Shown here in pieces: positions 1-17,622 of a DNA stretch of 64,000 nucleotides. This DNA is from Escherichia phage vB_EcoM_ULIM9. The position numbers were made by a program, and so were the translations under genes. The notes below the pieces were generated by a model. The model was given only the letters and a program-made list of their open reading frames with translations. It was not told the DNA's origin and searched no databases. Each line of letters begins with the position of its first letter. Positions within the stretch are counted from its first letter, which is position 1. The stretch lies in sequence record OQ850288. One strand, written 5' to 3'.

Positions 1-3
1 CAT

Positions 4-92
4 TTTCAGAATCTCCAGTTTAGGACTTTATTTAGTGGGGAAGGTCATTCCCTCCCCGTTGATGTGTAATTTAATCTATCTAAAAACCAGTG
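4..92 (-). repeat. intergenic cassette copy F (GC hairpin plus RBS-proximal motif), upstream of a minus-strand gene starting at position 3
   Basis: cat at 1-3 followed by tttcagaatctccagtttagg, matching the cattttagaatctcctagtttaagg motif of the other cassettes; GGGGAAGG..CCCTCCCC imperfect hairpin. Confidence 0.45.
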
Positions 93-425
93 TCAACAGT
101 TTTGTTTTCGTTTGCTCAATTCTTGAACAATTACAACGTAGTAGTCTTTTAAGTCACTGACATTTAAAGCATTTATCAGAGAATTATAATCATCAACTAA
201 CTGAAAATTATCTTTGAAGATGTCACTTATCTGATAGGTTTTCGCTTTATATCTGAAGCTCATCTCTAGCCGCTTTATTTGCTCATCACTTAAACGCCCT
301 AGAAAGCTTTCTACAAGGCTATTGCTAACCTGCTGGGTGGTTGCCTTATTTGCTAGATTATAGGCTTTATATGCCTTATATAGAGCGAAAATGGCAATGA
401 TTGCAGTGATACCAGTCATTAACAT
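93..425 (-). CDS. hypothetical small membrane protein
   Basis: 110-aa ORF with hydrophobic N-terminus (ITAIIAIFALY); overlaps the 3' end of ORF 419..715 by 7 nt. Confidence 0.4.
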   Translation of the reverse strand: MLMTGITAIIAIFALYKAYKAYNLANKATTQQVSNSLVESFLGRLSDEQIKRLEMSFRYKAKTYQISDIFKDNFQLVDDYNSLINALNVSDLKDYYVVIVQELSKRKQNC

Positions 426-715
426 GGTGTTTCCTCTTTACGTGATACTTTGCCATTTACAGTTATCTCATAGGATTCTAATAAATCGCTTTTAGATTTT
501 ACAGGACTTTTAAAAGTATCATCATAAATATTGACTTGCAATACAGGTTTTTTATACTCCCTGCAACTGTTCCATAAGCAAATCACTACACGACGGCCTT
601 TGATTTTTCCGTGTAACCATTCCATAACATCATGACTATTCCTTGATGTTTCAATGAAATCAATTTTATTAAGTAACTTGCTTAAATTTTCACGGACTTT
701 ATTTGATAATTTCAT
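419..715 (-). CDS. hypothetical protein
   Basis: 98-aa ORF; AGGAGA RBS about 8 nt upstream of ATG inside cassette A. Confidence 0.45.
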   Translation of the reverse strand: MKLSNKVRENLSKLLNKIDFIETSRNSHDVMEWLHGKIKGRRVVICLWNSCREYKKPVLQVNIYDDTFKSPVKSKSDLLESYEITVNGKVSRKEETPC

Positions 716-807
716 TTTAGAATCTCCTAGTTTAAGGGCTTTATTTGATAAATCTCTTTATCTGGGGCTATCCTACCAGCTTGATAACCCCGTGTAAAGG
801 AATCTAT
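716..807 (-). repeat. intergenic cassette copy A
   Basis: ttagaatctcctagtttaagg...tctttatctggggct...cccc: same architecture as copies B-D. Confidence 0.5.
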
Positions 808-1320
808 TTAGTTCTTAAAGATATTCATCACTGAGTCTTTCAACGATTCCAAACGTTCTAATACTTCAGATTCTGCGTCTGCGTTGTTCACCTCTTCTTT
901 TAGTCTATCCTCTAAATCATCGCCGTCACTGTAGCACCAATCGAAAGCGTAACCAATATAAAAACTTTCTAAAACAGTGCTGCCATTTGCATCTACAACT
1001 TTCGCGGCAATGTTATATTCTGAAGCCTCTAAATCTCTTTCTAGTTCTTTCTGTAAGCTGATGTAAGCCTCTTTTGATGGATTTGCCCGGCCTTGTTTTG
1101 CATAGTCACTTGAAAGCTGTTTAAGGCTGTAATGTAAAGGGATTGCATATTTAAATTCATTACGCTGATAGTTAGGATTTTTAATCGTCACACCGCCTTG
1201 ATGGTCATCTGTAAATTTCCAATTATCAAGATTATGGCTTGCTTCAAAGCAATTAATAGCTTCATAAATAATGGTGAATTTTTCTTTTACAACTTCAAAG
1301 GTAGCGTCTACAGTTTTCAT
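808..1320 (-). CDS. hypothetical protein
   Basis: 170-aa ORF, acidic C-terminal half; preceded by cassette B with AGGAGA RBS. Confidence 0.5.
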   Translation of the reverse strand: MKTVDATFEVVKEKFTIIYEAINCFEASHNLDNWKFTDDHQGGVTIKNPNYQRNEFKYAIPLHYSLKQLSSDYAKQGRANPSKEAYISLQKELERDLEASEYNIAAKVVDANGSTVLESFYIGYAFDWCYSDGDDLEDRLKEEVNNADAESEVLERLESLKDSVMNIFKN

Positions 1321-1414
1321 TTTTGAATCTCCTAGTTTAAGGATTGAGTGGTAAAGCTCTTTATCTGGGGCTTAAGATATCAGCTTTTAAGCCCCATGTA
1401 AAGTACTTTATCAG
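1321..1414 (-). repeat. intergenic cassette copy B: palindrome TAAAGCTCTTTA (1352-1363), hairpin GGGGCTTAA..TTAAGCCCC (1367-1395), palindrome TAAAGTACTTTA (1399-1410)
   Basis: read directly; the perfect 12-bp palindrome abuts the stop of the preceding minus-strand gene. Confidence 0.6.
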
Positions 1415-1668
1415 ATTAAATTGCCAGTTAATGATAAGTGCATTTTATAGCCTTTTTTGGTAAACACGTTCACTTTACCGAGTGATTTTACACCTTTAAA
1501 AAGATTGTTTGAACTGCGTTTTAAGATTAGTTGTTTATCAGCCTTCACGCCCCATCTTACAGCAGATTGTTTTCCGTTGTCAACAACTTTTCCGCCTAAC
1601 TTTTTCGCCATGATGCGAGCGTCATCGCGAGTTTTTGCAGTAATTACAACGTTTTTGATAATAGCCAT
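1411..1668 (-). CDS. hypothetical small basic protein
   Basis: 85-aa ORF, Lys/Arg-rich; cassette upstream. Confidence 0.45.
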   Translation of the reverse strand: MAIIKNVVITAKTRDDARIMAKKLGGKVVDNGKQSAVRWGVKADKQLILKRSSNNLFKGVKSLGKVNVFTKKGYKMHLSLTGNLI

Positions 1669-1756
1669 TTTAGAATCTCCAATTTAGGATTGAGTGGTAA
1701 AGCTCTTTATCTGGGGCTTACTTTATCGAACTATAAGCCCCTTGTAAAGTACTTTA
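1669..1756 (-). repeat. intergenic cassette copy C: hairpin GGGGCTTA..TAAGCCCC (1713-1741), palindrome TAAAGTACTTTA (1745-1756)
   Basis: read directly; near-identical to copy B. Confidence 0.6.
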
Positions 1757-2137
1757 TCAGTTAATTTTGAAAATTGTCACATAACCATCACTACCGATTA
1801 TTTGAGACGCTCCAGCTTTCTCCACTGAATAGCCCATATTTTCAAGATGGTAAACAGCATCATCATAACCATATGCGCCACCTTGATAACGTCTCTTATC
1901 GCATCTTATCAGGTTTTTACCACGTCCAGCAAGCGCATTCAGTACGGCTTTTTCACTTGAAAGCGCACCATCTAACATGGTTGCCGTGTAATGGTTGATT
2001 CTGTTCCCGTTAATGTCATACTTAAAATTGAATGCGTGAACAACAATAATCTGACCTGTAAAATTCTCATCAAGTGATTTTTCCAGTGCGTTGCGGAAGT
2101 TGTCTTTATTGATGAATTTAGGTGCACGATATGCCAT
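1757..2137 (-). CDS. hypothetical protein
   Basis: 126-aa ORF; cassette D upstream with RBS. Confidence 0.5.
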   Translation of the reverse strand: MAYRAPKFINKDNFRNALEKSLDENFTGQIIVVHAFNFKYDINGNRINHYTATMLDGALSSEKAVLNALAGRGKNLIRCDKRRYQGGAYGYDDAVYHLENMGYSVEKAGASQIIGSDGYVTIFKIN

Positions 2138-2225
2138 TTTTGAATCTCCTAGTTTAAGGTTGTTGATAAAGCTCTTTATCTGGGGCTTAAGATATCAACT
2201 TTTAAACCCCTTGTAAAGTACTTTA
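2138..2225 (-). repeat. intergenic cassette copy D
   Basis: ttttgaatctcctagtttaagg...taaagctctttatctggggcttaagatatcaacttttaaacccc ttgtaaagtactttat. Confidence 0.55.
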
Positions 2226-2432
2226 TTAGATATCGTAGTAATAAACTGCTGTCTGTCTCGTAAATTTTTTAGTATTCCTTGTAAGATAACAATCAGAGTT
2301 GATTGCCGTTTCTACATAGTTGCAATAATCAGCTTCTGATATTCTAGACCATACGCCACAAATTTGCATGTAAAAACGTTTTACATTTGTGTTAACGTTA
2401 GTTGTAACCATCAATTCACGACCGTATAGCAT
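2226..2432 (-). CDS. hypothetical small protein
   Basis: 68-aa ORF; RBS-proximal cassette motif (tagattctcctagtttaagg) upstream. Confidence 0.4.
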   Translation of the reverse strand: MLYGRELMVTTNVNTNVKRFYMQICGVWSRISEADYCNYVETAINSDCYLTRNTKKFTRQTAVYYYDI

Positions 2433-2470
2433 TTTTAGATTCTCCTAGTTTAAGGCTATTGGGCTTGTCG

Positions 2471-2942
2471 CCCCGTCTGATGCAAATACTATAAAAACCC
2501 GTTCGAGGAGTCAATAAAAATTTTAAAAATATTTTTGGCAAAAATGTAATGAAACGGGCGCACGCGACTACCACAAAACAGAACTACAATCAAGAATTAT
2601 TTTTCAATCCGCTACAAATTTTTCTGTTGACTTCTCTTTTCAGATGTGGTAGCCTTGTGAGAAATGGCGACATCCCCACCTACACCCACCTACCTGCACA
2701 ATTCTAAAATGATTTTTCTTGCCCGACCTGAGCGGGGTCTGCACGTTTTGAAAATGAAAAAGCTCTTTGGAGATTACCTGCACAGTTTGAAAATGAATTT
2801 TCTCTTTGGAGTTCAAAATTCTCTCTACAGATTTCTGTCCAGAACACTACCTGCACAATCCTGAAATAAAAAAGCCCTCCTTACCTGAAAAATTTACCAG
2901 ATAAGAAAGGCTTAGTCTATTGTGAATATTCTACAGAGTTTC
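2471..2942. repeat. about 470-bp non-coding region with four iteron-like direct repeats (consensus TACCTGCACA-N-TGAAAATGA) at about 2690, 2738, 2777 and 2850
   Basis: direct reading; the only track ORF here (2664..2864, plus strand) is low-complexity and built from the repeats. Confidence 0.5.
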
Positions 2943-3728
2943 TTAGTTCTTTGCGTCTAAGAAGGTAACTCCCGGTGAAGAGAAAATTTCCTCAACATCC
3001 TCATCAGTTCTTGCATAGATATACGTATCTGCATCACTGCCAAATGTTACTGCAATCTTGTGATTGCTCTTCGACAGGTGGGTAACTAGAGCGTTACTTA
3101 GAGACATCTTTTCAACCGGAGGGTTACTTTGATGTATCTTGCCTTTTCTTCGTCTGAAGAGGGTAACTGCATCATTAGTGAATACTACTACACCTGAAAA
3201 GTATTCTGGTTCACAGTAGTTCTTCCAACCTGAGCGTAACTTGTGGTACATCTCTCCTTCATAGACATACAGATACACATCTACACTCTTCATCACCTGA
3301 TTAATGATGACTGTGACGGCTTGAGAGTCTAGTCCACCGATACCTGCACCAATCATAGGTAACCCAACTTTCTTCAACTGATTGACTTCACAGTATCTGT
3401 TAAGCTGTTTCAAAGATGACTCTAAAGCACTGTATCGGGCATCTTTACCAGTCTTAAGCTGAGTGTAAAGGTTAGCTATACGGCCTTGTTCTAAACGTGC
3501 TACAGAGAAATTGCCTAGTAAATTTTCACAGGGTTTGTGGCCTATACCACCTGCATACAGATAGACTTCTGTATCAGTCTCATATGCTTTTGGGTAAAGT
3601 TTAGAAATCTTGTCAGCGATACCTGCACCCATTAAATTCATACAGTTGCAACCGTGACCAATGATATCAAACTTACCTTTATCAAATGCGGAGAAGATGT
3701 CCCCATTGATGATTTTTACAATACCCAT
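2943..3728 (-). CDS. macro-domain protein (OARD1/TARG1-like ADP-ribose processing) with an extra C-terminal domain
   Basis: N-terminal NGDIF...DIIGHGCNCMNLMGAGIA and later GLPMIGAGIGGLD match the CxxxC-MGAGIA and glycine-rich loops of Poa1p/OARD1-type macro domains, as recalled. Confidence 0.6.
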   Translation of the reverse strand: MGIVKIINGDIFSAFDKGKFDIIGHGCNCMNLMGAGIADKISKLYPKAYETDTEVYLYAGGIGHKPCENLLGNFSVARLEQGRIANLYTQLKTGKDARYSALESSLKQLNRYCEVNQLKKVGLPMIGAGIGGLDSQAVTVIINQVMKSVDVYLYVYEGEMYHKLRSGWKNYCEPEYFSGVVVFTNDAVTLFRRRKGKIHQSNPPVEKMSLSNALVTHLSKSNHKIAVTFGSDADTYIYARTDEDVEEIFSSPGVTFLDAKN

Positions 3729-3929
3729 TTAGCATCTCTCCCAAGATTCTTTATCTTCTGAAGGTTTTACACGTTGCCCTTCGTGGTCTACCCAGATACA
3801 TCCACAACCTTCACAGATTACTGGCATTGCATAGCCAGCTTTAAAGTCATCTTCAGTGATAAGACCTTTTAAGTCACCTGTATCACGTCCGAACATTTCG
3901 ATAGAGCAGTCTTTGCAGAAGTCAGCCAT
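3729..3929 (-). CDS. small zinc-ribbon protein
   Basis: 66 aa with CxxC (CKDC) and CEGCGC motifs; stop abuts the start of the macro-domain gene. Confidence 0.45.
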   Translation of the reverse strand: MADFCKDCSIEMFGRDTGDLKGLITEDDFKAGYAMPVICEGCGCIWVDHEGQRVKPSEDKESWERC

Positions 3930-4155
3930 GAATAATTACCTCTTGAGTGATGATACCTTTACCACAACGACTTTTAAAATCTTCTAATGGTTCAGAGAAG
4001 AAGTCACGGAAATGGTTACTGAACTCACGTTTCATCACCTTCTTGTAAGTTAACACATCTTCTCCTGCAAACGGGACGACTTCATGTCTCCCTTTGAATA
4101 CTGCTGAACTTACAATCTTACGTGTCTTTTTATCTCTGGCTAGTATTACTTTCAT
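3922..4155 (-). CDS. hypothetical protein
   Basis: 77-aa ORF, tightly packed with neighbours. Confidence 0.4.
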   Translation of the reverse strand: MKVILARDKKTRKIVSSAVFKGRHEVVPFAGEDVLTYKKVMKREFSNHFRDFFSEPLEDFKSRCGKGIITQEVIIHG

Positions 4156-4462
4156 AGTTTACCTTCTCAGTTAGCTCATACAAGTCAACATGCTCAATAC
4201 TATCAATGTTGATACCAATCTTTTTGAAGCGTTCTATCACTTCGTTGTCAGTCATCCATATCAGACACCAATGATTGTGGATGGATTCTTCAAGAAGGTC
4301 AACACAATCTTTAAAAGTTTTTGTATCACTTCTTGTTCCGACTACTGCGATTGTCCCATACAACCACTTACCATTACCATAAGATACCTGTGCTACACCA
4401 ACTTCTTTATCTTTCTCGTAGTAAACGGCTACAAAGTCTCTTCCATTAATCTGCATAGTCAC
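4130..4462 (-). CDS. hypothetical protein
   Basis: 110-aa ORF. Confidence 0.4.
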   Translation of the reverse strand: MTMQINGRDFVAVYYEKDKEVGVAQVSYGNGKWLYGTIAVVGTRSDTKTFKDCVDLLEESIHNHWCLIWMTDNEVIERFKKIGINIDSIEHVDLYELTEKVNYESNTSQR

Positions 4463-4728
4463 TTCCTCGTTTTAAGAACTGCTAAGATTTCTTTAGAGTC
4501 TGGTAAGAACCATGTGTAGTGATTCTCTTTGATTTCTGGATGAGTGTCAACCTTTATTTTGCACTCTTTACCAACATGCTTAAGTTGTGCTGTGACACCT
4601 TGCATAAAGATATGGCACATCACGTTATCCATAATGGTTGGTGAAAAATCAACCCGCATATAAGTTTCTTTTGGTCGTGGTAGCAGTAAGTACCCTTCTA
4701 CATAGAAAGTATCTTCATTCTCTGTCAT
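4459..4728 (-). CDS. hypothetical protein
   Basis: 89-aa ORF; 4-nt overlap with upstream gene. Confidence 0.4.
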   Translation of the reverse strand: MTENEDTFYVEGYLLLPRPKETYMRVDFSPTIMDNVMCHIFMQGVTAQLKHVGKECKIKVDTHPEIKENHYTWFLPDSKEILAVLKTRK

Positions 4729-4994
4729 TGCTGTCTGTTTCCTAATAAAATCATATCAATAAGGTTATTAGCTTTGATTGTGCACTGGTAAAAACCATCA
4801 CGATAAAACTCAAGGGCTGCTGCCACATCACTACCAGTATTACCTTTGACAGTGAATCTTGACTCTTCTTGAGTGTACTTGTCACTCTCACTTACTTGGG
4901 AGTTTTTGAATGTACTGTTCACTTTGTTCGTTGAACACCCTGACATAATTATCAGTAACACAAACATTATAAAACTCTGGCTTAGTTTTTTCAT
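4725..4994 (-). CDS. lipoprotein, putative o-spanin (Rz1-like)
   Basis: signal peptide with lipobox-like IMSGC; the gene starts inside the 3' end of the TM/coiled-coil gene 4888..5235 in another frame. Confidence 0.35.
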   Translation of the reverse strand: MKKLSQSFIMFVLLIIMSGCSTNKVNSTFKNSQVSESDKYTQEESRFTVKGNTGSDVAAALEFYRDGFYQCTIKANNLIDMILLGNRQQ

Positions 4995-5235
4995 ATGTTA
5001 GTACCTCTTTTGTATGCTTATTCTTAGCAAGCACATCTTTCAAATCATTTTTGTAATTGGTGCTGAGTGTGGCTAAACCTTCCTGATAAGCATCTTTGGC
5101 AACACTTATTAATTTCTCATTATTTAGCTCAGCTTCAGCAACTTGGTAGTCTCTGTAAGAGTATCCTCCCCAGACACCTGCTCCAACTAAGAAAACAATT
5201 ATGAAAGTAGCTTGGCAGAACTCTTTAAATGTCAT
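4888..5235 (-). CDS. membrane-anchored protein, putative i-spanin (Rz-like)
   Basis: N-terminal TM helix (FIIVFLVGAGVWGG) followed by a charged helical region; overlapped by the lipoprotein gene. Confidence 0.35.
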   Translation of the reverse strand: MTFKEFCQATFIIVFLVGAGVWGGYSYRDYQVAEAELNNEKLISVAKDAYQEGLATLSTNYKNDLKDVLAKNKHTKEVLTYEKTKPEFYNVCVTDNYVRVFNEQSEQYIQKLPSK

Positions 5236-5254
5236 TTAACAATCTCCTGAAATG

Positions 5255-5275
5255 AAAAAGGCTCCCGAAGGAGCC
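5255..5275 (-). terminator. intrinsic terminator (UUCG tetraloop hairpin plus U-run on the minus strand)
   Basis: plus-strand aaaaaGGCTCCcgaaGGAGCC just 3' of the stop of gene 5288..5752. Confidence 0.6.
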
Positions 5276-5287
5276 TGTATCTTAACC

Positions 5288-5752
5288 TTAACTGAGGACT
5301 TTAGCAAGGATATTCGCAGCCATCGAAGAAGCTTTTGCAGCAGCAACTACGCCAGCTTTGACAGTGCCATCCTTAATAGCAGATACCGTTGCAGCATCAG
5401 TAAAGAGGTAAGTGATTGTTTTAGAACCACTTGTAAAGGAAAGCATAAGAGTAGTTTCCAGATTGAAAGAGCGATACGGAGCACCTTCTTTAACGATACC
5501 TTCAGCACCTAACTCTGAAGCCTTACCCATATCATAAATAGTCATCAGGTTTTCTTTGTGTGCAGTCGTTGAACCAGCACCTTTTACGTGCTTTTTAACA
5601 TTCAACAATGCACGATATTCACGAATGCTGCCATCAGCTTTTACATTGACAGCACGAAAAATTTTACCTTCAAAGTTACCTTGAATCAATTTACGAACTA
5701 CTACAGATTTGTTTGTCGTATCGTCCAGTGCTACCGTAATGATATTGTTCAT
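5288..5752 (-). CDS. hypothetical protein
   Basis: 154-aa ORF, Ala/Gly/Thr-rich, terminator downstream. Confidence 0.45.
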   Translation of the reverse strand: MNNIITVALDDTTNKSVVVRKLIQGNFEGKIFRAVNVKADGSIREYRALLNVKKHVKGAGSTTAHKENLMTIYDMGKASELGAEGIVKEGAPYRSFNLETTLMLSFTSGSKTITYLFTDAATVSAIKDGTVKAGVVAAAKASSMAANILAKVLS

Positions 5753-5762
5753 AAGTTTTCTC

Positions 5763-6458
5763 TCAATGTTTAACTAACATGGTTTTAATGTGTGGAAGGA
5801 TTCTGTTTACCTTCTGAACATTCTTCTCTGTATCTTCTATAAAGCATACTATATTAAAGTAAGGAAGAATGCAAGACTGAATCATCCTAACTTTTAAACT
5901 TTCTGCACTTATAGAGTTAGTTCCAAAACCACGCATGAAAAGCATGTAATCATGCTCTATGTAATGCCTTAAAAACATCTCAGTAGGTACTCTCTGAGAT
6001 TCACCCCTCGCTGTCAAGAGTCCAATAGTAGCATGATTAGAGATTGCGTCAATAATATTGAAAACATACGTTGGTTTTGCACTTACAGAGTCAAGCAAAT
6101 TAGTGTACTGTGAAAATGACCCATCAATCAATTCTGTTGAGTAATCTTCGTGATTAAAATTTGTAAGAACACCATCAATGTCTGCTAAGATAAGGTTACC
6201 TTTTTCTACAAGGTCTTTATTGACTATGACTAAACTGTCACGTCTTACACCTATAGACTGTCCAGTCTCTTTGTCCACAACGTTCACAATTGTTTCTGAC
6301 GTGTGGAACTCTTCAAGTGAACATACAACTTCTCTTGCAGTATCTTCAAAATCCCTGCACTGCTCTGTAGTCCATACACAGGAATCAAGACCTAACTCAT
6401 GAGGGTGCAAGTCGTAAGCATGGCACAGGACTTCATCAGACTTTCTTAATTTTTTCAT
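5763..6458 (-). CDS. HAD-superfamily hydrolase (putative nucleotidase/phosphatase)
   Basis: motif I LILADIDGVLTN (DxDGV), LLTARG (motif II-like) and FIEDTEKN (motif IV-like). Confidence 0.45.
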   Translation of the reverse strand: MKKLRKSDEVLCHAYDLHPHELGLDSCVWTTEQCRDFEDTAREVVCSLEEFHTSETIVNVVDKETGQSIGVRRDSLVIVNKDLVEKGNLILADIDGVLTNFNHEDYSTELIDGSFSQYTNLLDSVSAKPTYVFNIIDAISNHATIGLLTARGESQRVPTEMFLRHYIEHDYMLFMRGFGTNSISAESLKVRMIQSCILPYFNIVCFIEDTEKNVQKVNRILPHIKTMLVKH

Positions 6459-6984
6459 GATTTACCTTAGAAATGTTTGTTGCAAATTCACATTGGGCAA
6501 TAACTTTCATATTGTTATAGACATCTTGAGAGTATTTCTTAGCTTTAGGAATTTTGTACGAATACCCAGCATTATATGATGCTAAAACTTTTTGTAAAGT
6601 CTTCTTTGACTTCGGTTGACCATGTACCTTCGTCCAAAACTCAAGCTCTTTGTGTGTTTCCTTTGCAGCATAGTCAAAGTCTTTTAAGAGTTTCTTTTTA
6701 GCTACATTAGGACTGATTTTGTTACGCTTTACAACAGTCTTCAAGTGATTCTGGAAGATACCATAGTCATGGGTCTTTTTATTCTCTACCTTCAGACCTA
6801 ACTCTGACTCTTGTAAGGCTATAGCAGCTAGAGTGATACCCCAACCTTTACCCATATTATTCTCACCATACTGGTAAGCTTTTAACATGTTTACTTTTTG
6901 GCTAATTGATAGCTCTGGGCAGTCAACTGCATAAGATAAGTGTGCTGTAAACATTAAGCACAAACCTAGAATCAATTTCTTCAT
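6436..6984 (-). CDS. secreted lytic transglycosylase (SLT-domain)
   Basis: N-terminal signal peptide MKKLILGLCLMFTAHLSYA; ALQESELG...DYGIFQ resembles the SLT catalytic Glu-Ser and GLMQ-type motifs. Confidence 0.5.
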   Translation of the reverse strand: MKKLILGLCLMFTAHLSYAVDCPELSISQKVNMLKAYQYGENNMGKGWGITLAAIALQESELGLKVENKKTHDYGIFQNHLKTVVKRNKISPNVAKKKLLKDFDYAAKETHKELEFWTKVHGQPKSKKTLQKVLASYNAGYSYKIPKAKKYSQDVYNNMKVIAQCEFATNISKVNHEKIKKV

Positions 6985-7043
6985 TGGTTCTCCTGTTTAG
7001 TTTATCGTGACAACAATTATACAGCACTCTGCACAAAATACAA

Positions 7044-7069
7044 ATAAAAAAGGCCGCCGAAGCAGCCTT
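7044..7069 (-). terminator. intrinsic terminator (UUCG tetraloop)
   Basis: plus-strand aaaaaaGGCCGCcgaaGCAGCCtt; on the minus strand an 8-bp stem with one G-U pair, followed by a U-run. Confidence 0.55.
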
Positions 7070-7084
7070 TTAAGAAATTACTTA

Positions 7085-8194
7085 TTAGATTTCACGTTTA
7101 CGCTGAGAGATAAGTTCACCAGCAGTACCAACGATGACATGCAAAGCTTCAGTCTTGCCATCCCATGCTTTCAGTACTTTACGTTGATTATCAACGATTG
7201 CTGCAACTTCATAACGAGACGAGCGCATCTTCATATCGTTGTAATCAGTTGGTACGGATACAACGTCTCGTGGATGGACACGAACCTTCAGAATTGTATC
7301 ACCTGAGAAGTAACGAACATAATCCCAAGCACCAACGTGAAGACCTTGAGAGCAAGTCACGTTACGGTTATTATCAACCATCCAACGTGGCATTTCTACA
7401 ATGTTACCCAAATCATTAGGTACTTTGCAGGTGCGGGAGTCAACCAGCTTGCCTTCACGAGTAGAGACTTTCTTCCAACCAATGATGTAGCCTTCTTCAT
7501 CAATTTCAACATCAAGGTGAGATATGAATCCCCAAAGTTGTTCTACAGAATCTTTAGATGGGTTTTCCATCAGTTTTTCGAAGAACATTACAAGTCGTTC
7601 AAAACCTTTATCACCAGTCTTCATCATGTGAAGTATACGGTCAACCAGAGTAGAACGCATCTCAACAGCACCGTAGAATAGCTTATCACCTTTGATTGTG
7701 ATAGCTCCCTGCGTGAAGTTTTCGATAGACTTACGAATGTTCATCAGTTCAAAGGCTTTCTTGAACTCACCTTTCACAACATGAACTACAATCTCTTGAT
7801 AGTTCGGATGAGTAGATTCAACAATTTCAGACTCTGAACCGTAAGTCATAATTACAGAGTCACCAGTAATCATATACTCAATCTTGTCATCTTTCTGCAT
7901 AGCTTCGTGCAGTTTATTTACTGGAGCTTTCTGTACAGCCTCTTTAACAACCTTTTTAACTGGCTTGTCAGCTTTCTTTTTAAAGGTCTTAGCAACTTGC
8001 TTCAAAGTCTTCGTAGCTGGTGTAGAAGTTACCTTCTTATTCCCTTTTAATGTTGCTTCATGACGCTCTACAGCACGACCGACTGAACGGGTTGAAGTAT
8101 TAAATTTCTGTGCAATAGCTGTTTTAGTCAGCTTACCTTCTTTAACCAGTTTGTAAATTTCTGCGTCAATCTGTGCTTTAGTTTTAGTAGTCAT
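7085..8194 (-). CDS. hypothetical protein with N-terminal helix-turn-helix
   Basis: 369 aa; N-terminal KLTKTAIAQKFNTSTRSVGRAV HTH-like segment. Confidence 0.45.
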   Translation of the reverse strand: MTTKTKAQIDAEIYKLVKEGKLTKTAIAQKFNTSTRSVGRAVERHEATLKGNKKVTSTPATKTLKQVAKTFKKKADKPVKKVVKEAVQKAPVNKLHEAMQKDDKIEYMITGDSVIMTYGSESEIVESTHPNYQEIVVHVVKGEFKKAFELMNIRKSIENFTQGAITIKGDKLFYGAVEMRSTLVDRILHMMKTGDKGFERLVMFFEKLMENPSKDSVEQLWGFISHLDVEIDEEGYIIGWKKVSTREGKLVDSRTCKVPNDLGNIVEMPRWMVDNNRNVTCSQGLHVGAWDYVRYFSGDTILKVRVHPRDVVSVPTDYNDMKMRSSRYEVAAIVDNQRKVLKAWDGKTEALHVIVGTAGELISQRKREI

Positions 8195-8238
8195 CTTATT
8201 ACTCTCTCTTGTTAGTTAATAAATCATTTTGTGAGGAT

Positions 8239-8268
8239 ATTCTAAGGGGCTTCAAAGCCCCTTGTCAA
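8239..8268 (-). promoter_or_regulatory. sigma70-like promoter TTGACA-18-TAGAAT with GC hairpin in the spacer
   Basis: minus strand reads TTGACAaggggctttgaagccccTTAGAAT upstream of gene 7085..8194. Confidence 0.5.
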
Positions 8269-8273
8269 ACACT

Positions 8274-9095
8274 TTAATCGTAAACTGTAGTTCCTTCTGG
8301 AACACACTTCACATCAAAACCTAAGAACTTACTCACTTCGATGGGTGACACTTTATTCCAATCTAAATGGGAAAGCAAGAAGTTTTCTTGTTTTCTTTTT
8401 GAAAGGTAGTTTGTCACCTTAATAACCATACGGTCACCAGCTTTCTTAATTTTCTTGTAAAGCTTTGTATCGTTGTCAAGACAATCTTCCAAAGTTTTCA
8501 ACACACTAACAGTGTAAGTGTATGCAAATGGTGCAGCAACATACTGGATTTTACCAAACATTGCCTCTACAGCCTCTTCATTACCTTCTAGGAAGATAGT
8601 TTTGTTTGTATCCCGTGAATAGCAATAGCCACGAGAAATCTTCCTGTTATTGAACGTAAAGTTTCTGGCAATAATCCAGCTACTTGTAAGGTCAAGAATA
8701 CCATTCATGTAGATGCGTGTCATATACCTGTTATGATTAATCCAATGAACATCAGTTAAGCTGTCGTTCAAGAGTTTCTCATCTACTTCAATCCAGTCTT
8801 CTGGTATCTTTTTCCAATTTGCTTTTCGGAAAACATAGACTGTCTTTCCAATAACATTAGCAACTGACTTAGCTACATCTTCTGGGGATGAGCAAAAACA
8901 TTCACCATCAACTGTGTCACCAATTGCCTTAATGTAAAGCTGAGGTTCTTCAATTGTATCAAAGTCCTCTGAAACCTCTTTATAGGAAGCTACACCTTCT
9001 GCTGGAACAGCTTTCCAGAGTTTTACAACACCTCTTACAGCTTCTTTACGCTGGTAATGGTGCTCCTTATCAGACATTTTCACAATCTTTAACAA
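8274..9095 (-). CDS. hypothetical protein (possible rIIB-like partner of the upstream GHKL ATPase)
   Basis: 273-aa ORF immediately downstream of the GHKL ATPase gene; assignment by synteny only. Confidence 0.35.
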   Translation of the reverse strand: MLKIVKMSDKEHHYQRKEAVRGVVKLWKAVPAEGVASYKEVSEDFDTIEEPQLYIKAIGDTVDGECFCSSPEDVAKSVANVIGKTVYVFRKANWKKIPEDWIEVDEKLLNDSLTDVHWINHNRYMTRIYMNGILDLTSSWIIARNFTFNNRKISRGYCYSRDTNKTIFLEGNEEAVEAMFGKIQYVAAPFAYTYTVSVLKTLEDCLDNDTKLYKKIKKAGDRMVIKVTNYLSKRKQENFLLSHLDWNKVSPIEVSKFLGFDVKCVPEGTTVYD

Positions 9096-11178: not shown

Positions 11179-11199
11179 AAAAAGGCTCCCGTAGGAGCC
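11179..11199 (-). terminator. intrinsic terminator (GGCTCC-uacg-GGAGCC plus U-run)
   Basis: plus-strand aaaaaGGCTCCcgtaGGAGCC 3' of the Nampt-like gene. Confidence 0.6.
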
Positions 11200-11214
11200 T
11201 CTTATCATATACTT

Positions 11215-14682: not shown

Positions 14683-15190
14683 TGTAAGTTGCCCTATAAA
14701 CTGTCTCGAACTTCAACAGGAGAGATATTGCCAAATCTGTATAGTTGTTGTCAAGCACATCTGGCATATTATTTTTGATATACTTCTCTTGCTCTTCGTA
14801 GGTCATCTTAGGGATGCTTAGAAGACTGTCGCCTTGCTTCTGGTTATCAAGCTTAGTCTGGATAAACCAGTTTGCACAGTGATGCTCACCACCCTTTGTA
14901 ACAGGCTTGTGGTGACCTAATGTGAAGGATTGGCTACCTGTGTATCTGCAAAGTTTATTGAGCACTGTAATGGTGTTCTTCACAACAAACAATTCATACA
15001 GGTTATCTATAGTGTAGTGTGGGTAATAACGGAATAGTGCTCTTTCACGAGTACTTTCACGATTCCAGAGAATCATGTGATTGGAGTTTGAGGGGTCGTA
15101 TTGGTGGGAGTCAATGAACTCTTGACGTTCCTCAAAGCTGAGTCTTAGCACTGACATTGCAGCAGAACGTTTTAGGTTTGACAGATACAT
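14675..15190 (-). CDS. hypothetical protein with HNH-like motif
   Basis: GHHKPVTKGGEHHCANWFIQTKLDNQK resembles the HH...GG...N...N HNH core; first gene after the terminator at 15201-15229. Confidence 0.35.
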   Translation of the reverse strand: MYLSNLKRSAAMSVLRLSFEERQEFIDSHQYDPSNSNHMILWNRESTRERALFRYYPHYTIDNLYELFVVKNTITVLNKLCRYTGSQSFTLGHHKPVTKGGEHHCANWFIQTKLDNQKQGDSLLSIPKMTYEEQEKYIKNNMPDVLDNNYTDLAISLLLKFETVYRATYNG

Positions 15191-15200
15191 ATCATCTCCA

Positions 15201-15229
15201 AAATAAAAAGGGAACCTTTACAGTTCCCT
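15201..15229 (-). terminator. intrinsic terminator
   Basis: plus-strand aaaaAGGGAACctttacaGTTCCCTT; minus-strand hairpin followed by UUUUUAUUUU. Confidence 0.55.
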
Positions 15230-15241
15230 TATAGTATCTGC

Positions 15242-15562
15242 TTACTGAGCTACTTTCAAGATTCTTGTGAATGGAATTTCACTTTCTTCCATTAACTCTT
15301 TAGTTTCTTTGGTAACTTTCACAAAGTTATCTAGGCAGATAATCTTCTTATCTTTCTTACTATAGGTTAATTTAACCTTTTCAATATCTTTCTCAGAGCT
15401 TTTCTCTTCATTGAAGAGTTTTACAGCCTCTTTGAATGGGAGATATGAGCCATCATTATCGCTAATGAATCCTGTACCACAATAGTAGGAGTTATGCTCT
15501 CTAGCCATAAACTGGCACAGTAAGAAAATCTGTAATTTACGAGTGTTATAAACTTTGCTCAT
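15242..15562 (-). CDS. hypothetical protein
   Basis: 106-aa ORF. Confidence 0.4.
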   Translation of the reverse strand: MSKVYNTRKLQIFLLCQFMAREHNSYYCGTGFISDNDGSYLPFKEAVKLFNEEKSSEKDIEKVKLTYSKKDKKIICLDNFVKVTKETKELMEESEIPFTRILKVAQ

Positions 15563-15564
15563 GA

Positions 15565-15831
15565 TTATTTAGCCTTCTTATTACGTTTACGGTTACGAGC
15601 TTTCTTAGCTGCTCGTTTAATAGCTGCTGCACCAGACGGACGGTGGGCTTGTTTCTTACCACCTTTGCCACGGCCTACATAGATGTAAGGCTGCTGTTCA
15701 ATTTGGCTTGTAAGAACCTGTGCAACCGCTGAAGCATCTACACCGACCTGCTTTCCAGTCATAGAAACAATTGCTGCTGCTTTTGCCAGTGCCTTCAAGA
15801 AGCCAGCTTTCATATCACCTAAAATTCCCAT
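15565..15831 (-). CDS. hypothetical protein with highly basic C-terminus
   Basis: 88 aa ending KRAAKKARNRKRNKKAK. Confidence 0.4.
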   Translation of the reverse strand: MGILGDMKAGFLKALAKAAAIVSMTGKQVGVDASAVAQVLTSQIEQQPYIYVGRGKGGKKQAHRPSGAAAIKRAAKKARNRKRNKKAK

Positions 15832-15846
15832 TTTTAGTCTCTCTCA

Positions 15847-16122
15847 TTAAAGTTTAATACAGAACTTATGAAGTTCTTCTTCAGTGATACCTATTGGAGT
15901 GATACCTTCTCTGATATTTTGAATCCTGTAGAAGTCTCCAAACTTATCTGATTCATGAATGACAAACGTGACATTCTTTACAATCGTTGCAAGAGCACAT
16001 AATGAACGTGAACCAAATTTTTCTCTCGTATAAATCATCCAAGCATCTAACTTGTTGATGTCGTAAGTCCACTTACCAGAATAATCATTCTGCTCGCCAT
16101 TGACAATCACCTTGCCATCCAT
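15847..16122 (-). CDS. hypothetical protein (start uncertain)
   Basis: track ORF 15847..16203 overlaps the nrdG 3' end; internal ATG at 16122 has a GGAG RBS. Confidence 0.3.
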   Translation of the reverse strand: MDGKVIVNGEQNDYSGKWTYDINKLDAWMIYTREKFGSRSLCALATIVKNVTFVIHESDKFGDFYRIQNIREGITPIGITEEELHKFCIKL

Positions 16123-16570
16123 ACTCTTTTCTCCACAAATTTTGGTTGTCTGAACCACGATATGGTTTAACTGTTGGTTTAGAAGAATCATACTTACCAT
16201 CAATCACCACGTCAACATATTTCATCACATCTAGGTGAATTTTTTCGTGTAACTGAAAACCTGTCCAAAGCCATATAGACTTTTCTGGATAAACAGTTTT
16301 AATACGCTTGCATATGTTGGTAACCTCTTGAATGTTTCTATCATCCAGAGGCTCCCCACCAAGTATTGACAGTCCACTGATAGCATTATCATTCATTAAC
16401 TGAATAATTCCGTAAAGGTTTGCATAAGTAAATACTTTACCAGCATTAAACTTCCAAGACTCCCTGTTAAAGCAGCCTTCACAGTGATGCTTACAACCAG
16501 CTACGAAGAGGCTTACACGAACCCCTTCACCATTAGCTGTGTCAAATGGTCTAATCTCCATGTAATTCAT
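16085..16570 (-). CDS. nrdG: anaerobic ribonucleotide reductase activating protein (radical SAM)
   Basis: FVAGCKHHCEGCFN Cx3Cx2C cluster near the N-terminus; about 160 aa; adjacent to the class III RNR gene. Confidence 0.8.
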   Translation of the reverse strand: MNYMEIRPFDTANGEGVRVSLFVAGCKHHCEGCFNRESWKFNAGKVFTYANLYGIIQLMNDNAISGLSILGGEPLDDRNIQEVTNICKRIKTVYPEKSIWLWTGFQLHEKIHLDVMKYVDVVIDGKYDSSKPTVKPYRGSDNQNLWRKEYGWQGDCQWRAE

Positions 16571-16579
16571 CTAGTTACC

Positions 16580-16879
16580 TCACCAATACATATAAGTGCT
16601 CTGAGCAGCTTTCTTTGGAGACTTACTATCAATGTCAAAGTCTTCATCTAAGTAGGATGTCTTAGAAAGCTGCCTTATTTGTGTTCTTGTAAGACGTTTA
16701 GTAGCCTTCTTAATCTCTCTACAAGGCTGGCTTGTAAAGTCATAAGAGCCTCCTTTTCTGGACATCATATCAGAATGGAAGTAGACATCTGAAGCATTTT
16801 CTCTGTTACGTACCTCATTTCTCCACTCATAGAGTCCATGAACGTTCTTCAAACCTTTTCTTCGAATTGTTTTACTCAT
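16580..16879 (-). CDS. hypothetical protein
   Basis: 99-aa ORF. Confidence 0.4.
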   Translation of the reverse strand: MSKTIRRKGLKNVHGLYEWRNEVRNRENASDVYFHSDMMSRKGGSYDFTSQPCREIKKATKRLTRTQIRQLSKTSYLDEDFDIDSKSPKKAAQSTYMYW

Positions 16880-17468: not shown

Positions 17469-17573
17469 TTTAACTTATCTCTCAATTCACAATAAGAGAG
17501 TCCTAAAAAGAACCCTAGTAAGACAGAACCTATGAACAACCCAATAATACTCTCTGCCATATCTAACATCCAA

Positions 17574-17613
17574 TAAAAAAGGTGATGTAAGCCTATCAAG
17601 ACCTACATCACCT
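17574..17613 (-). terminator. intrinsic terminator (10-bp stem)
   Basis: plus-strand aaaaaaGGTGATGTAAgcctatcaagaccTACATCACCtt 3' of nrdD. Confidence 0.6.
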
Positions 17614-17622
17614 TGTCAAGTT

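What the first reader, a model, noticed from the sequence alone, without database searches (positions are those of the whole stretch)
4..2470. Repeated about 90-bp intergenic cassette between every small early gene
Six copies (4-92, 716-807, 1321-1414, 1669-1756, 2138-2225 and a partial copy at 2433-2470) share the same order on the minus strand: stop codon, perfect 12-bp palindrome TAAAGTACTTTA, a GC-rich hairpin (GGGGCTTAA..TTAAGCCCC), a second near-palindrome TAAAGCTCTTTA, then ACTAGGAGATTC RBS and ATG. A related but not identical arrangement (a GC hairpin inside a TTGACA-18-TAGAAT promoter spacer) sits at 8239-8268. The hairpin is not followed by a U-run on either strand, so it is not a classical terminator. 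The arrangement suggests an operator-flanked regulatory element or an RNA-processing site that makes each small gene an independent unit.
Basis: seen in the sequence. Interest (0 to 1): 0.6.

Follow-up and report, generated by a model that had tools for sequence, protein, structure and literature searches.

The report
Promoter-plus-hairpin cassettes between small phage genes
The repeated ~90-bp spacers between small genes of this Felix O1-like phage are most likely compact expression cassettes (host-type promoter wrapped around an RNA hairpin, plus a ribosome-binding site), and they also mark where genes are gained, lost and swapped; this design is known from T4-like phages but I found no description of it in this phage group.

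Summary
The repeats are real, but the finding overstates their uniformity. The window is a Felixounavirus (Felix O1/wV8-like coliphage). Four spacers (716-807, 1321-1410, 1669-1756, 2138-2225; minus strand) form one family, "type A". Only three of them carry both palindromes and the GGGGCTTA..TAAGCCCC stem. The spacers at 4-96 and 2433-2530 belong to a second family, "type B": promoter first, then a hairpin in the leader.

In 53 distinct copies from four Ounavirinae genera:
- the -35 TTTACA is invariant;
- the spacer is 17 nt in 49 copies;
- the -10 always reads T-A-n-n-n-T, with near-random middle bases;
- the predicted start lies at the 3' foot of the hairpin.

The 9-bp stem is kept by compensatory changes (98.8% of cells paired; 0/500 shuffles reach this). 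Its U.G wobbles pair only on the mRNA strand, and it has no U-tail, although the phage uses U-tailed terminators elsewhere. Gene presence/absence differences among relatives break inside the cassettes, and one junction is scarless.

This anatomy matches the PeSLs ("promoter-early stem-loops") of T4-like phages, checked directly against RB49, with no detectable sequence homology. Felix O1 papers list these sequences only as "direct repeats". Verdict: new member of a known kind. What the hairpin does (attenuator, 3' protector or RNase III site) is not resolved.

The parts
2433..2530 (-). Head-of-array cassette (type B): promoter TTGACT (2514-2509), 17 nt, TAGTAT (2491-2486); small hairpin about 2461-2474 in the leader; SD module TAAACTAGGAGAATC (2438-2452); ATG at 2430-2432
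   Evidence: The same terminator + TTGACT promoter opens the array in all relatives examined.
2138..2225 (-). Type A cassette c5: -35 TTTACA 2217-2212; -10 TATCTT 2194-2189; stem-loop 2182-2210; invariant AGATAAAGAG 2172-2181 (predicted +1 at its first A); SD module 2142-2156; ATG 2135-2137
1669..1756 (-). Type A cassette c4: -35 TTTACA 1748-1743; -10 TAAAGT 1725-1720; stem-loop 1713-1741; AGATAAAGAG 1703-1712; ATG 1666-1668
1321..1410 (-). Type A cassette c3: -35 TTTACA 1402-1397; -10 TATCTT 1379-1374 (preceded by TGn); stem-loop 1367-1395; AGATAAAGAG 1357-1366; SD module 1325-1339; ATG 1318-1320
716..807 (-). Type A cassette c2 (divergent copy): -35 TTTACA 798-793; -10 TAGGAT 775-770; compensated stem GGGGTTATC/GATAGCCCC 764-791; AGATAAAGAG 754-763; SD module 720-734; ATG 713-715
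4..96 (-). Type B cassette c1: promoter TTGACA (96-91, overlapping the stop codon of ORF 93-425), 17 nt, TAAATT (73-68); hairpin GGGGAGGGAATGACCTTCCCC (37-57) at the predicted 5' end of its own transcript; SD; ATG 1-3 of a gene cut off by the window edge
   Evidence: This is the Felix O1 '39-bp direct repeat' (PMC3185647).
93..2432 (-). Small ORFs served by the cassettes: 2226-2432 (68 aa), 1757-2137 (126 aa), 1411-1668 (85 aa), 808-1320 (170 aa), 419-715 (98 aa) and 93-425 (110 aa). The last two overlap and form one two-gene unit.
   Evidence: All fall in PHROGs of unknown function with no Pfam hit. Presence varies among relatives.
2872..2913 (-). Canonical T-tailed intrinsic terminator (Felix O1 't13') that closes the upstream operon and insulates the start of the array
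8239..8268 (-). Related promoter/stem-loop outside the array: TTGACA, 18 nt, TAGAAT, with hairpin 8244-8263 wholly inside the spacer and TTAAAGTGT upstream of the -35; sits upstream of ORF 7085-8194, which lines up with the gene annotated rIIB in relatives
   Evidence: rIIB annotation

Best explanation
Each spacer is a composite, portable expression cassette of the PeSL (promoter-early stem-loop) kind.

Layout of type A on the gene (minus) strand: stop codon of the upstream gene; an AT-rich tract; -35 TTTACA; a 17-nt spacer that begins with the G-tract left arm of a hairpin; a -10 TAnnnT lying in the loop and right arm; the C-tract right arm; predicted start at the first A of the invariant AGATAAAGA; an unstructured leader of about 45 nt; the SD module TAAACT(A)GGAGATTC; ATG.

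Proposed working (inferred, not shown by experiment):
1. Host sigma70 RNA polymerase starts afresh in front of every small gene.
2. The start lies at the 3' foot of the stem. The hairpin therefore forms only in RNA arriving from the upstream gene. There it marks and insulates that message's 3' end, by attenuating read-through and/or blocking 3' exonucleases. The cassette's own transcript has an open leader.
3. The ~90 bp of shared sequence gives homologous recombination a foothold, so genes plus cassettes are deleted, inserted, exchanged and converted. This makes the array a plastic region of accessory genes.

Type B cassettes place the hairpin just after the start site, so it would sit at the 5' end of their own mRNA.

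Shown here: the sequence signatures, the covariation and the breakpoints. Not shown: promoter activity, what the hairpin does, and the recombination mechanism.
For: Promoter.
- The scan places TTTACA-17-TAnnnT at the same offset in all four type A copies, and TTGACA/TTGACT promoters in c1 and c6.
- In 53 distinct copies from Felixounavirus, Suspvirus, Mooglevirus and Kolesnikvirus, CTTTACA is invariant and the spacer is 17 nt in 49 copies.
- -10 positions 1, 2 and 6 are T, A, T in 53/53, while positions 3-5 are near-random. G occupies -14 in 49/53 (TG in 25).
- 6-7 nt separate the -10 from the invariant box, and the upstream 22 nt are 77% AT against 61% for the window.
- The -10 keeps its distance from the -35 even where its register relative to the stem shifts by one base.

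Hairpin.
- 98.8% of 432 cells are paired, against 84.8% in shuffles (0/500) and 20-55% when slid. Four of 9 pairs show double changes, including G-C to U-A in all Kolesnikvirus copies.
- Position 5 is C-G in 24 copies and U.G in 24. It would therefore be a mismatch on the opposite strand in half the copies, which points to the mRNA-sense strand.
- RNAalifold recovers the helix independently.
- Read-through RNA folds at -22 to -29 kcal/mol (z -2.3 to -5.0). The predicted own leader is unstructured, z about 0.
- The phage uses T-tailed terminators elsewhere, so the missing tail is a real class difference.

Plasticity.
- All 13 internal synteny breakpoints against XTG1, wV8, Moogle, SUSP1 and EcSzw-2 fall in cassettes.
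- wV8 lacks exactly the 513-nt gene and has one intact fused cassette, with the exchange inside the shared SD/ATG module.
- Felix O1 and Moogle lack the 381- and 258-nt genes.
- Chimeric cassettes exist, and the hairpin with its -10 is swapped between neighbouring copies in close relatives.
- Array genes are found in 151-222 records, against 257 for the adjacent macro-domain gene.

Match to PeSLs.
- The same caller run on RB49's own PeSLs gives the same picture: G-tract starting right after the -35, 0-3 T in the tail, GGAGAATCAAAATG.
Against: - No transcript mapping exists for this phage group in the searchable literature, so promoter use and RNA ends are inferred.
- The -10 hexamers are weak (4 of 6 matches to TATAAT), and promoter-like matches are common in AT-rich DNA: 48 found against 27 expected in 10 kb.
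- Felix O1 end-point RT-PCR puts only some array ORFs in the earliest class: 16, 20, 21 and 22 peak at 5 min, while 14, 17, 19 and 23 peak at 25 min.
- A hairpin without a U-tract is not expected to terminate E. coli RNA polymerase efficiently. The attenuator role rests on one RB49 reporter experiment, which could also reflect RNA decay.
- Gene indels must end in intergenic DNA anyway, so breakpoints falling in cassettes is a weak test on its own. The scarless junction and the chimeras carry the argument.
- The copies are related and subject to gene conversion, so the compensatory changes represent few independent events.
- The invariance of the whole (A/T)GATAAAGA box is not explained by this model.
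- There is no sequence homology to RB49 PeSLs.
Confidence: 0.7

Rival explanations
1. The hairpin's main job is RNA processing. In read-through RNA the inner stem, the CTTTA:TAAAG tier and the outer tier form an interrupted helix of about 22 bp. Host RNase III would cut it, as it cuts between early genes of T7, separating the cistrons and leaving a protective 3' hairpin. A cut in the AGA internal loop would give processed RNA nearly the same 5' end as the promoter's own transcript. This can coexist with the promoter.
For: - The minimum-free-energy and centroid folds of all four type A spacers give a helix of about 22 bp with a 2x2 or 3x3 internal loop, and RNAalifold predicts the same three tiers.
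- The outer tier is 94.1% paired against 89.2% in shuffles (0/500), with 8 double-change cells.
- TAAAG is invariant in 53/53 type A copies, where it can pair with the -35's CTTTA. It is dispensable after type B hairpins in Moogle and SUSP1.
- The resemblance to T7 RNase III sites is from my own knowledge and was not tested.
Against: - The middle tier never varies, so it is uninformative. The outer-tier double changes trace to about two events, and 17 of its 288 cells are unpaired.
- Type B and hairpin-only spacers occupy equivalent positions but have only 6-8 bp stems, too short for RNase III. A function common to all the spacers therefore does not need the long helix.
- Processing does not explain the invariant T-A-n-n-n-T held 17 nt from TTTACA.
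Confidence: 0.25
2. The two 12-bp palindromes TAAAG-NN-CTTTA are operators for a dimeric, probably phage-encoded, DNA-binding protein. It would clamp the promoter at the -35 and at +1 to +15 and shut off, or time, the whole array.
For: - The palindrome occurs twice per cassette, about 47 bp apart, overlapping the -35 and the start site, and nowhere else in the 64 kb.
- (A/T)GATAAAGA is invariant over four genera, which is more than pairing requires.
- Felix O1 RT-PCR suggests array genes differ in timing.
Against: - Only the hairpin-proximal half of each palindrome is conserved, and the distal halves drift. c2 has lost the left palindrome but keeps its promoter and stem.
- The conserved left half is simply the -35.
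- The U.G pairs point to selection on one RNA strand, not on duplex DNA.
- No candidate binding protein was identified, and a regulon would be expected to have sites elsewhere.
Confidence: 0.12
3. The hairpins are ordinary intrinsic terminators, and the spacers are simply terminator-plus-RBS junctions.
For: - They are stable GC-rich stems at gene ends.
- GenBank records annotate some of them as 'Rho-independent terminator'.
- The RB49 stem-loop reduced downstream reporter expression (PMC2839356).
Against: - There is no U-tract: 1-2 T in the 8 nt after the stem, against 5-7 for the phage's real terminators.
- Two of the XTG1 annotations lie on the strand opposite to the genes.
- This reading does not explain the conserved -35 and -10.
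Confidence: 0.05

Closest known systems
PeSLs (promoter-early stem-loops) of T4-like phages: RB49/phi1, PST/T4, nt-1/KVP40 (Arbiol et al. 2010, PMC2839356; Comeau et al. 2014, PMC4122927)
   Same: - Composite element of about 70-100 bp filling the gap between small ORFs of unknown function.
- The upstream stop codon lies in an A-rich tract.
- Sigma70-type promoter with a 17-nt spacer. T4/PST use TTTACW-N17-TAYWAT, close to TTTACA-N17-TAnnnT here.
- G-tract/C-tract stem-loop starting right after the -35 and lying in the spacer, over the -10 or just downstream. These subclasses correspond to types A and B here.
- No T-tail.
- Fixed SD/ATG module: GGAGAATCAAAATG in RB49, GGAGATTCAAAAATG here.
- Clustered in a plastic region, with indels, replacements and chimeras at the elements.
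Checked directly on RB49 and against the papers.
   Different: - The host phage is an Ounavirinae myovirus, not a T4-like one.
- No detectable sequence homology.
- The loop is long (10-11 nt) and holds the -10.
- Flanking complementary boxes extend the predicted helix to about 22 bp.
- An invariant (A/T)GATAAAGA box sits at the predicted start.
- -10 hexamers are weaker than RB49's near-consensus TATAAT.
- Promoter activity, terminator activity and mini-circles, shown for RB49/phi1, are untested here.
RNase III processing sites between the early genes of phage T7 (from my own knowledge)
   Same: - Intercistronic position in an early, host-polymerase-transcribed block.
- Predicted two-tier helix interrupted by an internal loop.
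- The hairpin would remain at the 3' end of the upstream message.
   Different: - T7 early genes share upstream promoters and have no promoter inside each site.
- Here every site overlaps a promoter.
- The lower helix has only modest comparative support.
- No cleavage data exist.
Intrinsic (Rho-independent) terminators
   Same: GC-rich stem-loop directly after a gene.
   Different: The cassette hairpins have no U-tract, while the same genome carries typical U-tailed terminators, including the ones that bracket the array.
Intercistronic stabiliser hairpins such as REP/BIME elements and the C(UUCG)G hairpins of T4 (from my own knowledge)
   Same: - Repeated, stable stem-loops between cistrons without a U-tail.
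- They act, or are proposed to act, as barriers to 3' exonucleases.
   Different: - Those elements are not fused to a promoter and an SD module.
- They are not known as portable gene-cassette junctions.

Membership tests
PeSL (promoter-early stem-loop) cassettes | Sigma70-type promoter (-35, about 17 nt, -10) inside the element | tested here: met
   TTTACA-17-TAnnnT in all four type A copies and TTGACA/TTGACT-17-TAnnnT in both type B copies. In 53 copies the -35 and -10 positions 1, 2 and 6 are invariant. Activity itself was not tested.
PeSL (promoter-early stem-loop) cassettes | Stable stem-loop, typically polyG...polyC, placed in the spacer, over the -35 or -10, upstream, or just before or after the start site | tested here: met
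   GGGG.../...CCCC stems of 9-10 bp begin 1 nt after the -35 and span the -10. Covariation supports the stem. RB49 PeSLs show the same placement.
PeSL (promoter-early stem-loop) cassettes | AT-rich tract upstream of the -35 that contains the upstream gene's stop codon | tested here: met
   The 22 nt upstream of CTTTACA are 77% AT against 61% for the window. Stop codons lie 5-15 nt upstream of the -35.
PeSL (promoter-early stem-loop) cassettes | Shine-Dalgarno sequence and start codon of the downstream gene at the 3' end | tested here: met
   TAAACT(A)GGAGATTC-N5-ATG in all six spacers.
PeSL (promoter-early stem-loop) cassettes | Repeated copies clustered among small ORFs of unknown function in a plastic genome region | tested here: met
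   Arrays of 10-17 small ORFs in 12 genomes. All window ORFs are PHROG 'unknown function' with no Pfam hit. Each gene is absent from part of the population.
PeSL (promoter-early stem-loop) cassettes | Insertions, deletions and replacements between close relatives have their junctions in the elements | tested here: met
   13 of 13 internal breakpoints lie in cassettes. The wV8 junction is scarless. Chimeric and converted cassettes exist. Caveat: gene indels must end in intergenic DNA anyway.
PeSL (promoter-early stem-loop) cassettes | Demonstrated strong promoter activity and read-through reduction by the stem-loop | not testable with these tools
   This needs reporter fusions, in vitro transcription or transcript-end mapping. 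None was found in the literature for Ounavirinae.
PeSL (promoter-early stem-loop) cassettes | Recombination between neighbouring elements yields circular 'mini-circle' DNAs | not testable with these tools
   This needs inverse PCR on infected cells or virions.
PeSL (promoter-early stem-loop) cassettes | Occurrence in T4-like myoviruses, the taxonomic range in which the family was defined, and sequence relatedness to described PeSLs | tested here: not met
   The host is a Felixounavirus. An nhmmer profile of type A finds nothing significant in RB49's PeSL region. I treat this as an extension of range, not a failure of an architectural criterion. Common descent is not supported.
Intrinsic terminator | GC-rich stem followed directly by a U-rich tract | tested here: not met
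   1-2 T in the 8 nt after the stem, against 5-7 for the genome's canonical terminators. None of the cassette hairpins was called by the terminator scan.
RNase III processing site (T7 early type) | About two turns of dsRNA (about 20 bp or more), often interrupted by an internal loop, supported as a structure | tested here: inconclusive
   A helix of about 22 bp is predicted. The inner tier is strongly supported, the middle tier is invariant, and the outer tier is weakly supported. Cleavage is not testable here.
Operator pair for a dimeric DNA-binding protein | Both half-sites of each palindrome conserved | tested here: not met
   Only the hairpin-proximal halves are invariant. The distal halves vary among copies and genera.
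Rfam RNA families | Match to a curated covariance model | tested here: not met
   No hit at or near gathering score in window 1-9000, and none at the cassettes.

The most novel reading that the evidence does not exclude
Type A cassettes superimpose a promoter and a double-strand-specific RNA processing site. The full helix of about 22 bp would form only in read-through RNA and be cut, by RNase III or a phage factor, in the AGA internal loop. Processed and primary transcripts would then start at essentially the same nucleotide (AGAUAAAGAG...). Every gene would get an identical leader whatever its transcript's origin, and the upstream message would keep a protective 3' hairpin. The otherwise unexplained invariance of (A/T)GATAAAGA would then reflect a combined start-site and cleavage-site signal. 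A further implication is that the PeSL design arose independently in two unrelated myovirus lineages.
Probability: 0.2. Interest if true: 0.65.

Novelty: new member of a known kind. Interest (0 to 1): 0.45.

Why it matters
- Felix O1-like phages are classic typing phages and are now widely used biocontrol and therapy candidates. Their genome paper states that how transcription is organised and timed 'is not known', and it lists these sequences only as direct repeats (PMC3185647).
- Reading the repeats as promoter/stem-loop cassettes gives roughly ten previously unannotated early promoters per genome. It also gives a concrete model for how the accessory-gene block is expressed.
- It offers a mechanism for the gene-content differences seen among the ~260 sequenced relatives.
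- It extends the PeSL 'mobile regulatory cassette' idea beyond T4-like phages, with no detectable sequence homology. That suggests a general, possibly convergent, way for virulent phages to keep small accessory genes portable and self-sufficient.
- In practice the cassettes predict where engineered genes can be inserted or swapped with built-in expression signals.

Tried and rejected
- MAFFT alignment of natural cassette sequences (A1) put the shorter-stem variants out of register. I replaced it with a stem-anchored, loop-trimmed alignment (A2) for pair counting. A1 was used only for RNAalifold.
- A second promoter using the downstream TTTACC: no TAnnnT lies 16-18 nt away (inspection of the sequences). 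Rejected.
- The palindrome as a genome-wide regulon mark: it occurs only in the cassettes.
- Rfam scan of 1-9000 at permissive thresholds: only sub-threshold chance hits, none at the cassettes.
- Sequence homology to RB49 PeSLs by nhmmer: none.
- Literature searches for transcript mapping in Felixounavirus/Felix O1 found nothing. The wV8 paper does not mention repeats or promoters. The phiEa21-4 paper is not held. The phiEa21-4 and Felix O1 RefSeq records carry no promoter features here.
- A shared post-hairpin 'TAAAG' box in type B and hairpin-only spacers: present in Felixounavirus type B copies but absent in Moogle and SUSP1, so it is not universal.
- Strong concerted evolution of all copies within a genome: orthologous positions mostly keep their stem type between the window and SUSP1. 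I claim only occasional conversion between neighbours.
- Protein-level work (structure prediction, large homology searches) was not used. The finding is a non-coding element and the flanking ORFs are PHROG unknowns.

Full report
**Source and setting**

The first 6 kb of the window match about 257 phage records. The best is Escherichia phage JN01, at 96.7% identity over 100% of the query. All are Felix O1/wV8-like myoviruses (Ounavirinae, Felixounavirus). In 1-2530 every ORF is on the minus strand. All of these fall in PHROGs of unknown function and have no Pfam domain.

**Observation**

The repeats are real and not due to chance. Each of these motifs occurs only in the array:
- TAAAGNNCTTTA: 6 hits against 0.33 expected
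- CCAGATAAAGAG: 4 against 0.32
- GGGGCTTA-N13-TAAGCCCC: 3 against 0.07

They are not six copies of one thing. Aligned on the gene strand, four spacers form family A (716-807, 1321-1410, 1669-1756, 2138-2225). The copy at 716-807 has a degenerate left box and a different, compensated stem. The spacers at 4-96 and 2433-2530 form family B and share only the SD/ATG module with A. ORFs 93-425 and 419-715 overlap, so there is no cassette between them.

On the gene strand, family A reads:

...ATAAAGTA-CTTTACA-N-GGGGCTTAA-loop-TTAAGCCCC-AGATAAAGAGCTTTAC...TAAACTAGGAGATTC-N5-ATG

The consensus scan places TTTACA-17-TATCTT/TAAAGT/TAGGAT at the same offset in all four A copies. It places TTGACA-17-TAAATT in c1 and TTGACT-17-TAGTAT in c6.

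The cassette is present at 2-8 places per genome in 287 phage records: Felixounavirus, Suspvirus, Mooglevirus and the Erwinia/Salmonella Kolesnikvirus group. I fetched the array from relatives in all four genera and extracted 53 distinct type A copies. In these copies:
- CTTTACA is invariant.
- The spacer is 17 nt in 49 copies, 16 in 2 and 18 in 2.
- There are 13 different -10 hexamers, yet position 1 is T, position 2 is A and position 6 is T in 53/53. Positions 3-5 are close to random.
- G occupies -14 in 49/53 (TG in 25).
- The -10 is followed by 6-7 nt and then the invariant (A/T)GATAAAGA.
- The 22 nt upstream of the -35 are 77% AT, against 61% for the window.

T1, A2 and T6 are the positions of the sigma70 -10 element that established knowledge says matter most. 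T1 and A2 lie in the hairpin loop, where no structural constraint would preserve them. The hexamer also keeps its 17-nt distance from the -35 in variants where its register relative to the stem shifts by one base. I regard the promoter as well supported by sequence but unproven by experiment.

**The hairpin**

On a stem-anchored alignment of 48 distinct copies (A2), the 9-bp inner stem is paired in 98.8% of 432 cells. Shuffles give 84.8% (0/500 reach the observed value), and slid registers give 20-55%. Four of the nine pairs show changes on both sides, in 38 cells. One is G-C to U-A at position 3 in all Kolesnikvirus copies (GGTG.../...CACC). Because the copies are related and can convert one another, these represent few independent events.

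Position 5 is C-G in 24 copies and U.G in 24. Position 9 is also often U.G. A U.G pair becomes a C.A mismatch on the opposite strand, so the structure is maintained on the mRNA-sense strand.

With the start predicted at the A that follows the right arm, the cassette's own transcript lacks the left arm. Its 47-49-nt leader shows no more structure than shuffled sequence (z -0.6 and 0.0). RNA entering from the upstream gene folds at -22 to -29 kcal/mol (z -2.3 to -5.0).

**Not a canonical terminator**

A census of GC-rich hairpins across the 64 kb shows that this phage has ordinary terminators with 5-7 T in the 8 nt after the stem. Examples are 55349-55378, 42435-42458, 17579-17614, 15208-15230, 11180-11203, 7048-7071 and 5259-5276. 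Two 'Rho-independent terminator' features that the XTG1 record places on the cassette hairpins lie on the strand opposite to the genes.

**The 'palindromes'**

The invariant columns are CTTTACA on the left and GATAAAGA on the right. The outer half of each 12-mer drifts: TAGAT, TAAAT or AAAAG on the left, and ATTTA, CTATA or CTTTT on the right. The conserved parts are therefore one half-site each, and they are complementary to each other.

Single-sequence folding and RNAalifold both extend the hairpin through a CTTTA:TAAAG tier and a further 6-bp tier, giving an interrupted helix of about 22 bp. The middle tier never varies and so is uninformative. The outer tier is 94.1% paired against 89.2% in shuffles (0/500), with 8 double-change cells from about two events and 17 unpaired cells.

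This pattern argues against two independent operators. It keeps an RNase III-type substrate as a live rival. Family B and hairpin-only spacers occupy equivalent positions with stems of only 6-8 bp and no extension, so a role common to all the spacers does not require the long helix. Why the entire (A/T)GATAAAGA box is invariant remains unexplained.

**Array architecture**

In all twelve genomes examined the block has the same plan:
- It opens with a T-tailed terminator (window 2872-2913, Felix O1 't13') and a TTGACT-17-TA(G/A)TAT promoter.
- It then runs through 10-17 small ORFs separated by 60-100-bp spacers.
- Each spacer is type A, type B, or a hairpin with no detectable promoter.

The window holds only the promoter-proximal part. 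The array continues beyond position 1 in relatives.

**Plasticity**

Blast of window 1-3000 against five relatives gives 13 internal synteny breakpoints, all inside cassettes.
- wV8 lacks exactly the 513-nt gene (808-1320). It has a single intact cassette that is c3-like up to GGAGATTCAAAAATGAAA and then continues straight into the 297-nt gene. The exchange therefore lies in the shared SD/ATG module of about 27 nt and leaves no scar.
- wV8 also lacks the 207-nt gene (c5/c6).
- Moogle and Felix O1 lack the 381- and 258-nt genes (c3..c5).
- SUSP1 and EcSzw-2 carry an extra ~175 bp at c5.
- XTG1 carries an extra 234 bp at c6.

Cassettes themselves are mosaic. The same left flank occurs with different stems and different right halves. 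In ECP2307 and C600M2, the hairpin and -10 in front of the 513-nt gene are of the neighbouring cassette's type, although the flanking genes are about 92% identical to the window's.

At population scale the adjacent macro-domain gene is found in 257 records. The array genes are found in about 196 enteric records (217 including 21 Erwinia), 206, 222 and 151. Short queries are less sensitive, so these are lower bounds.

Gene indels must end in intergenic DNA in any case. The scarless junction and the chimeras, not the breakpoint count, are the real evidence for recombination between cassettes.

**Comparison with what is known**

Arbiol et al. 2010 and Comeau et al. 2014 describe PeSLs in T4-like phages. 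These are elements of about 100 bp with:
- an AT-rich tract holding the upstream stop codon;
- a sigma70-like promoter;
- an SD and start codon.

They are concentrated among ORFans in hyperplastic regions and sit at indel junctions. Promoter strength, reduction of read-through and mini-circle formation were shown experimentally for RB49/phi1. T4/PST PeSLs use TTTACW-N17-TAYWAT.

I ran the same promoter/hairpin/tail caller on RB49's own spacers, including the published PeSLs 192/193, 205/206 and 210/211. They show the G-tract starting immediately after the -35, the hairpin in the spacer or wrapped over the -10, 0-3 T in the tail, and GGAGAATCAAAATG at the end. The architecture is the same as in this window. 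Sequence homology is not detectable: nhmmer's best hit has E = 0.44 and lies on the wrong strand.

For Ounavirinae, the Felix O1 genome paper lists the type A and type B cores as '57 bp' and '39 bp direct repeats' without interpretation. It says that how transcription is organised is not known. The wV8 RefSeq record labels them DR_1 to DR_9. The wV8 paper does not mention them. The phiEa21-4 and Felix O1 RefSeq records have no promoter features there. I found no transcript mapping.

**Mechanism, with what is shown and what is inferred**

Shown by sequence analysis:
- a conserved sigma70-type promoter signature;
- a sense-strand stem maintained by compensation;
- no U-tail;
- an unstructured own leader against a strongly folded read-through RNA;
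- cassette-to-cassette junctions and mosaics among relatives.

Inferred:
- Host polymerase restarts at every cassette.
- The hairpin acts only on transcripts coming from upstream, as an attenuator and/or 3' exonuclease barrier, possibly as an RNase III site.
- In type B the hairpin caps the 5' end of the cassette's own mRNA.
- Homologous recombination between cassettes drives gene turnover.

Felix O1 RT-PCR places ORFs 16, 20, 21 and 22 at 5 min and ORFs 14, 17, 19 and 23 at 25 min. That is compatible with individually driven genes, but the method is too coarse to test the model.

**Verdict**

This is a real and well-defined element. It missed the promoter and over-read the palindromes. The element is best filed as a PeSL-type promoter/stem-loop cassette array in a phage group where I found no prior description of it as such: a new member of a known kind, of moderate interest.

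Noticed in passing
window 2531-2871 (especially 2675-2860): The non-coding gap between the T-tailed terminator (2872-2913) and the head-of-array promoter holds three exact copies of TACCTGCACA (2691, 2775, 2848; there are no other exact copies in the 64 kb). It also holds imperfect repeats of about 34 nt (CTGCAC..GAAAATGA..CTCTTTGGAG at 2739 and 2778) and CCCACCTACA x1.9. wV8 annotates a 165-nt ORF (gp13) in the equivalent place. Function unknown.
   Followed up: partly
window 11180-11203 and 17579-17614 (minus strand): Ordinary T-tailed terminator hairpins are abutted or overlapped by near-consensus promoters. TTGACA-16-TATGAT ends at the foot of the 11180 stem, and TTGACA-18-TAGGCT overlaps the 17579 stem. 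This is the same 'stop what comes in, restart here' logic as the cassettes, but built with canonical terminators.
   Followed up: no
L012 (RB49) 14722-32332 compared with window cassettes: RB49 PeSLs and these cassettes end in almost the same translation-start module (GGAGAATCAAAATG against GGAGATTCAAAAATG). Both have ...AAAGT(T/A/G)n immediately before the -35. Yet the type A profile finds no homology in RB49. This could be convergence on an optimal E. coli initiation region or a trace of shared origin.
   Followed up: partly
L006-L011 and L014 arrays; window 4-96: The type B family is itself conserved: TTGACA-17-TAAATT-ACnnATCAAC-GGGGAGGGAATGACCTTCCCC-ACTAARTAAAGTCC. In some copies the -35 has decayed (TTGATT, TTGCAA, CTAGAC), leaving spacers that are effectively hairpin-only. 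Kolesnikvirus genomes carry their own hairpin-only repeat, GGGGTTACGGTTATGAGACTATAACCCC, three times per array.
   Followed up: partly
L001 (XTG1) 536-556 and 3148-3168; L003 (ECP2307) 2786-3082 and 6489-6815: These look like annotation artefacts in public records. XTG1 has 'Rho-independent terminator' features on the strand opposite to the genes at the c1-type and c6-type hairpins. ECP2307 labels small ORFs of this region 'tail sheath monomer' (the 297-nt array ORF) and 'tail assembly protein'.
   Followed up: no
window 93-715 (minus strand): ORFs 419-715 and 93-425 overlap by 7 nt and stay together as a two-gene unit behind a single cassette in every genome examined.
   Followed up: no
window 754-763, 1357-1366, 1703-1712, 2172-2181: (A/T)GATAAAGA is invariant in 53/53 type A copies over four genera, although only TAAAG is needed to pair with the -35's CTTTA. 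None of the models fully explains this.
   Followed up: partly
window 5259-5276 and 7048-7071 (minus strand): These canonical terminators have C(UUCG)G-type loops (AGGCTCCTTCGGGAGCCT and GGCTGCTTCGGCGGCC). They correspond to Felix O1 terminators t5 and t2.
   Followed up: no
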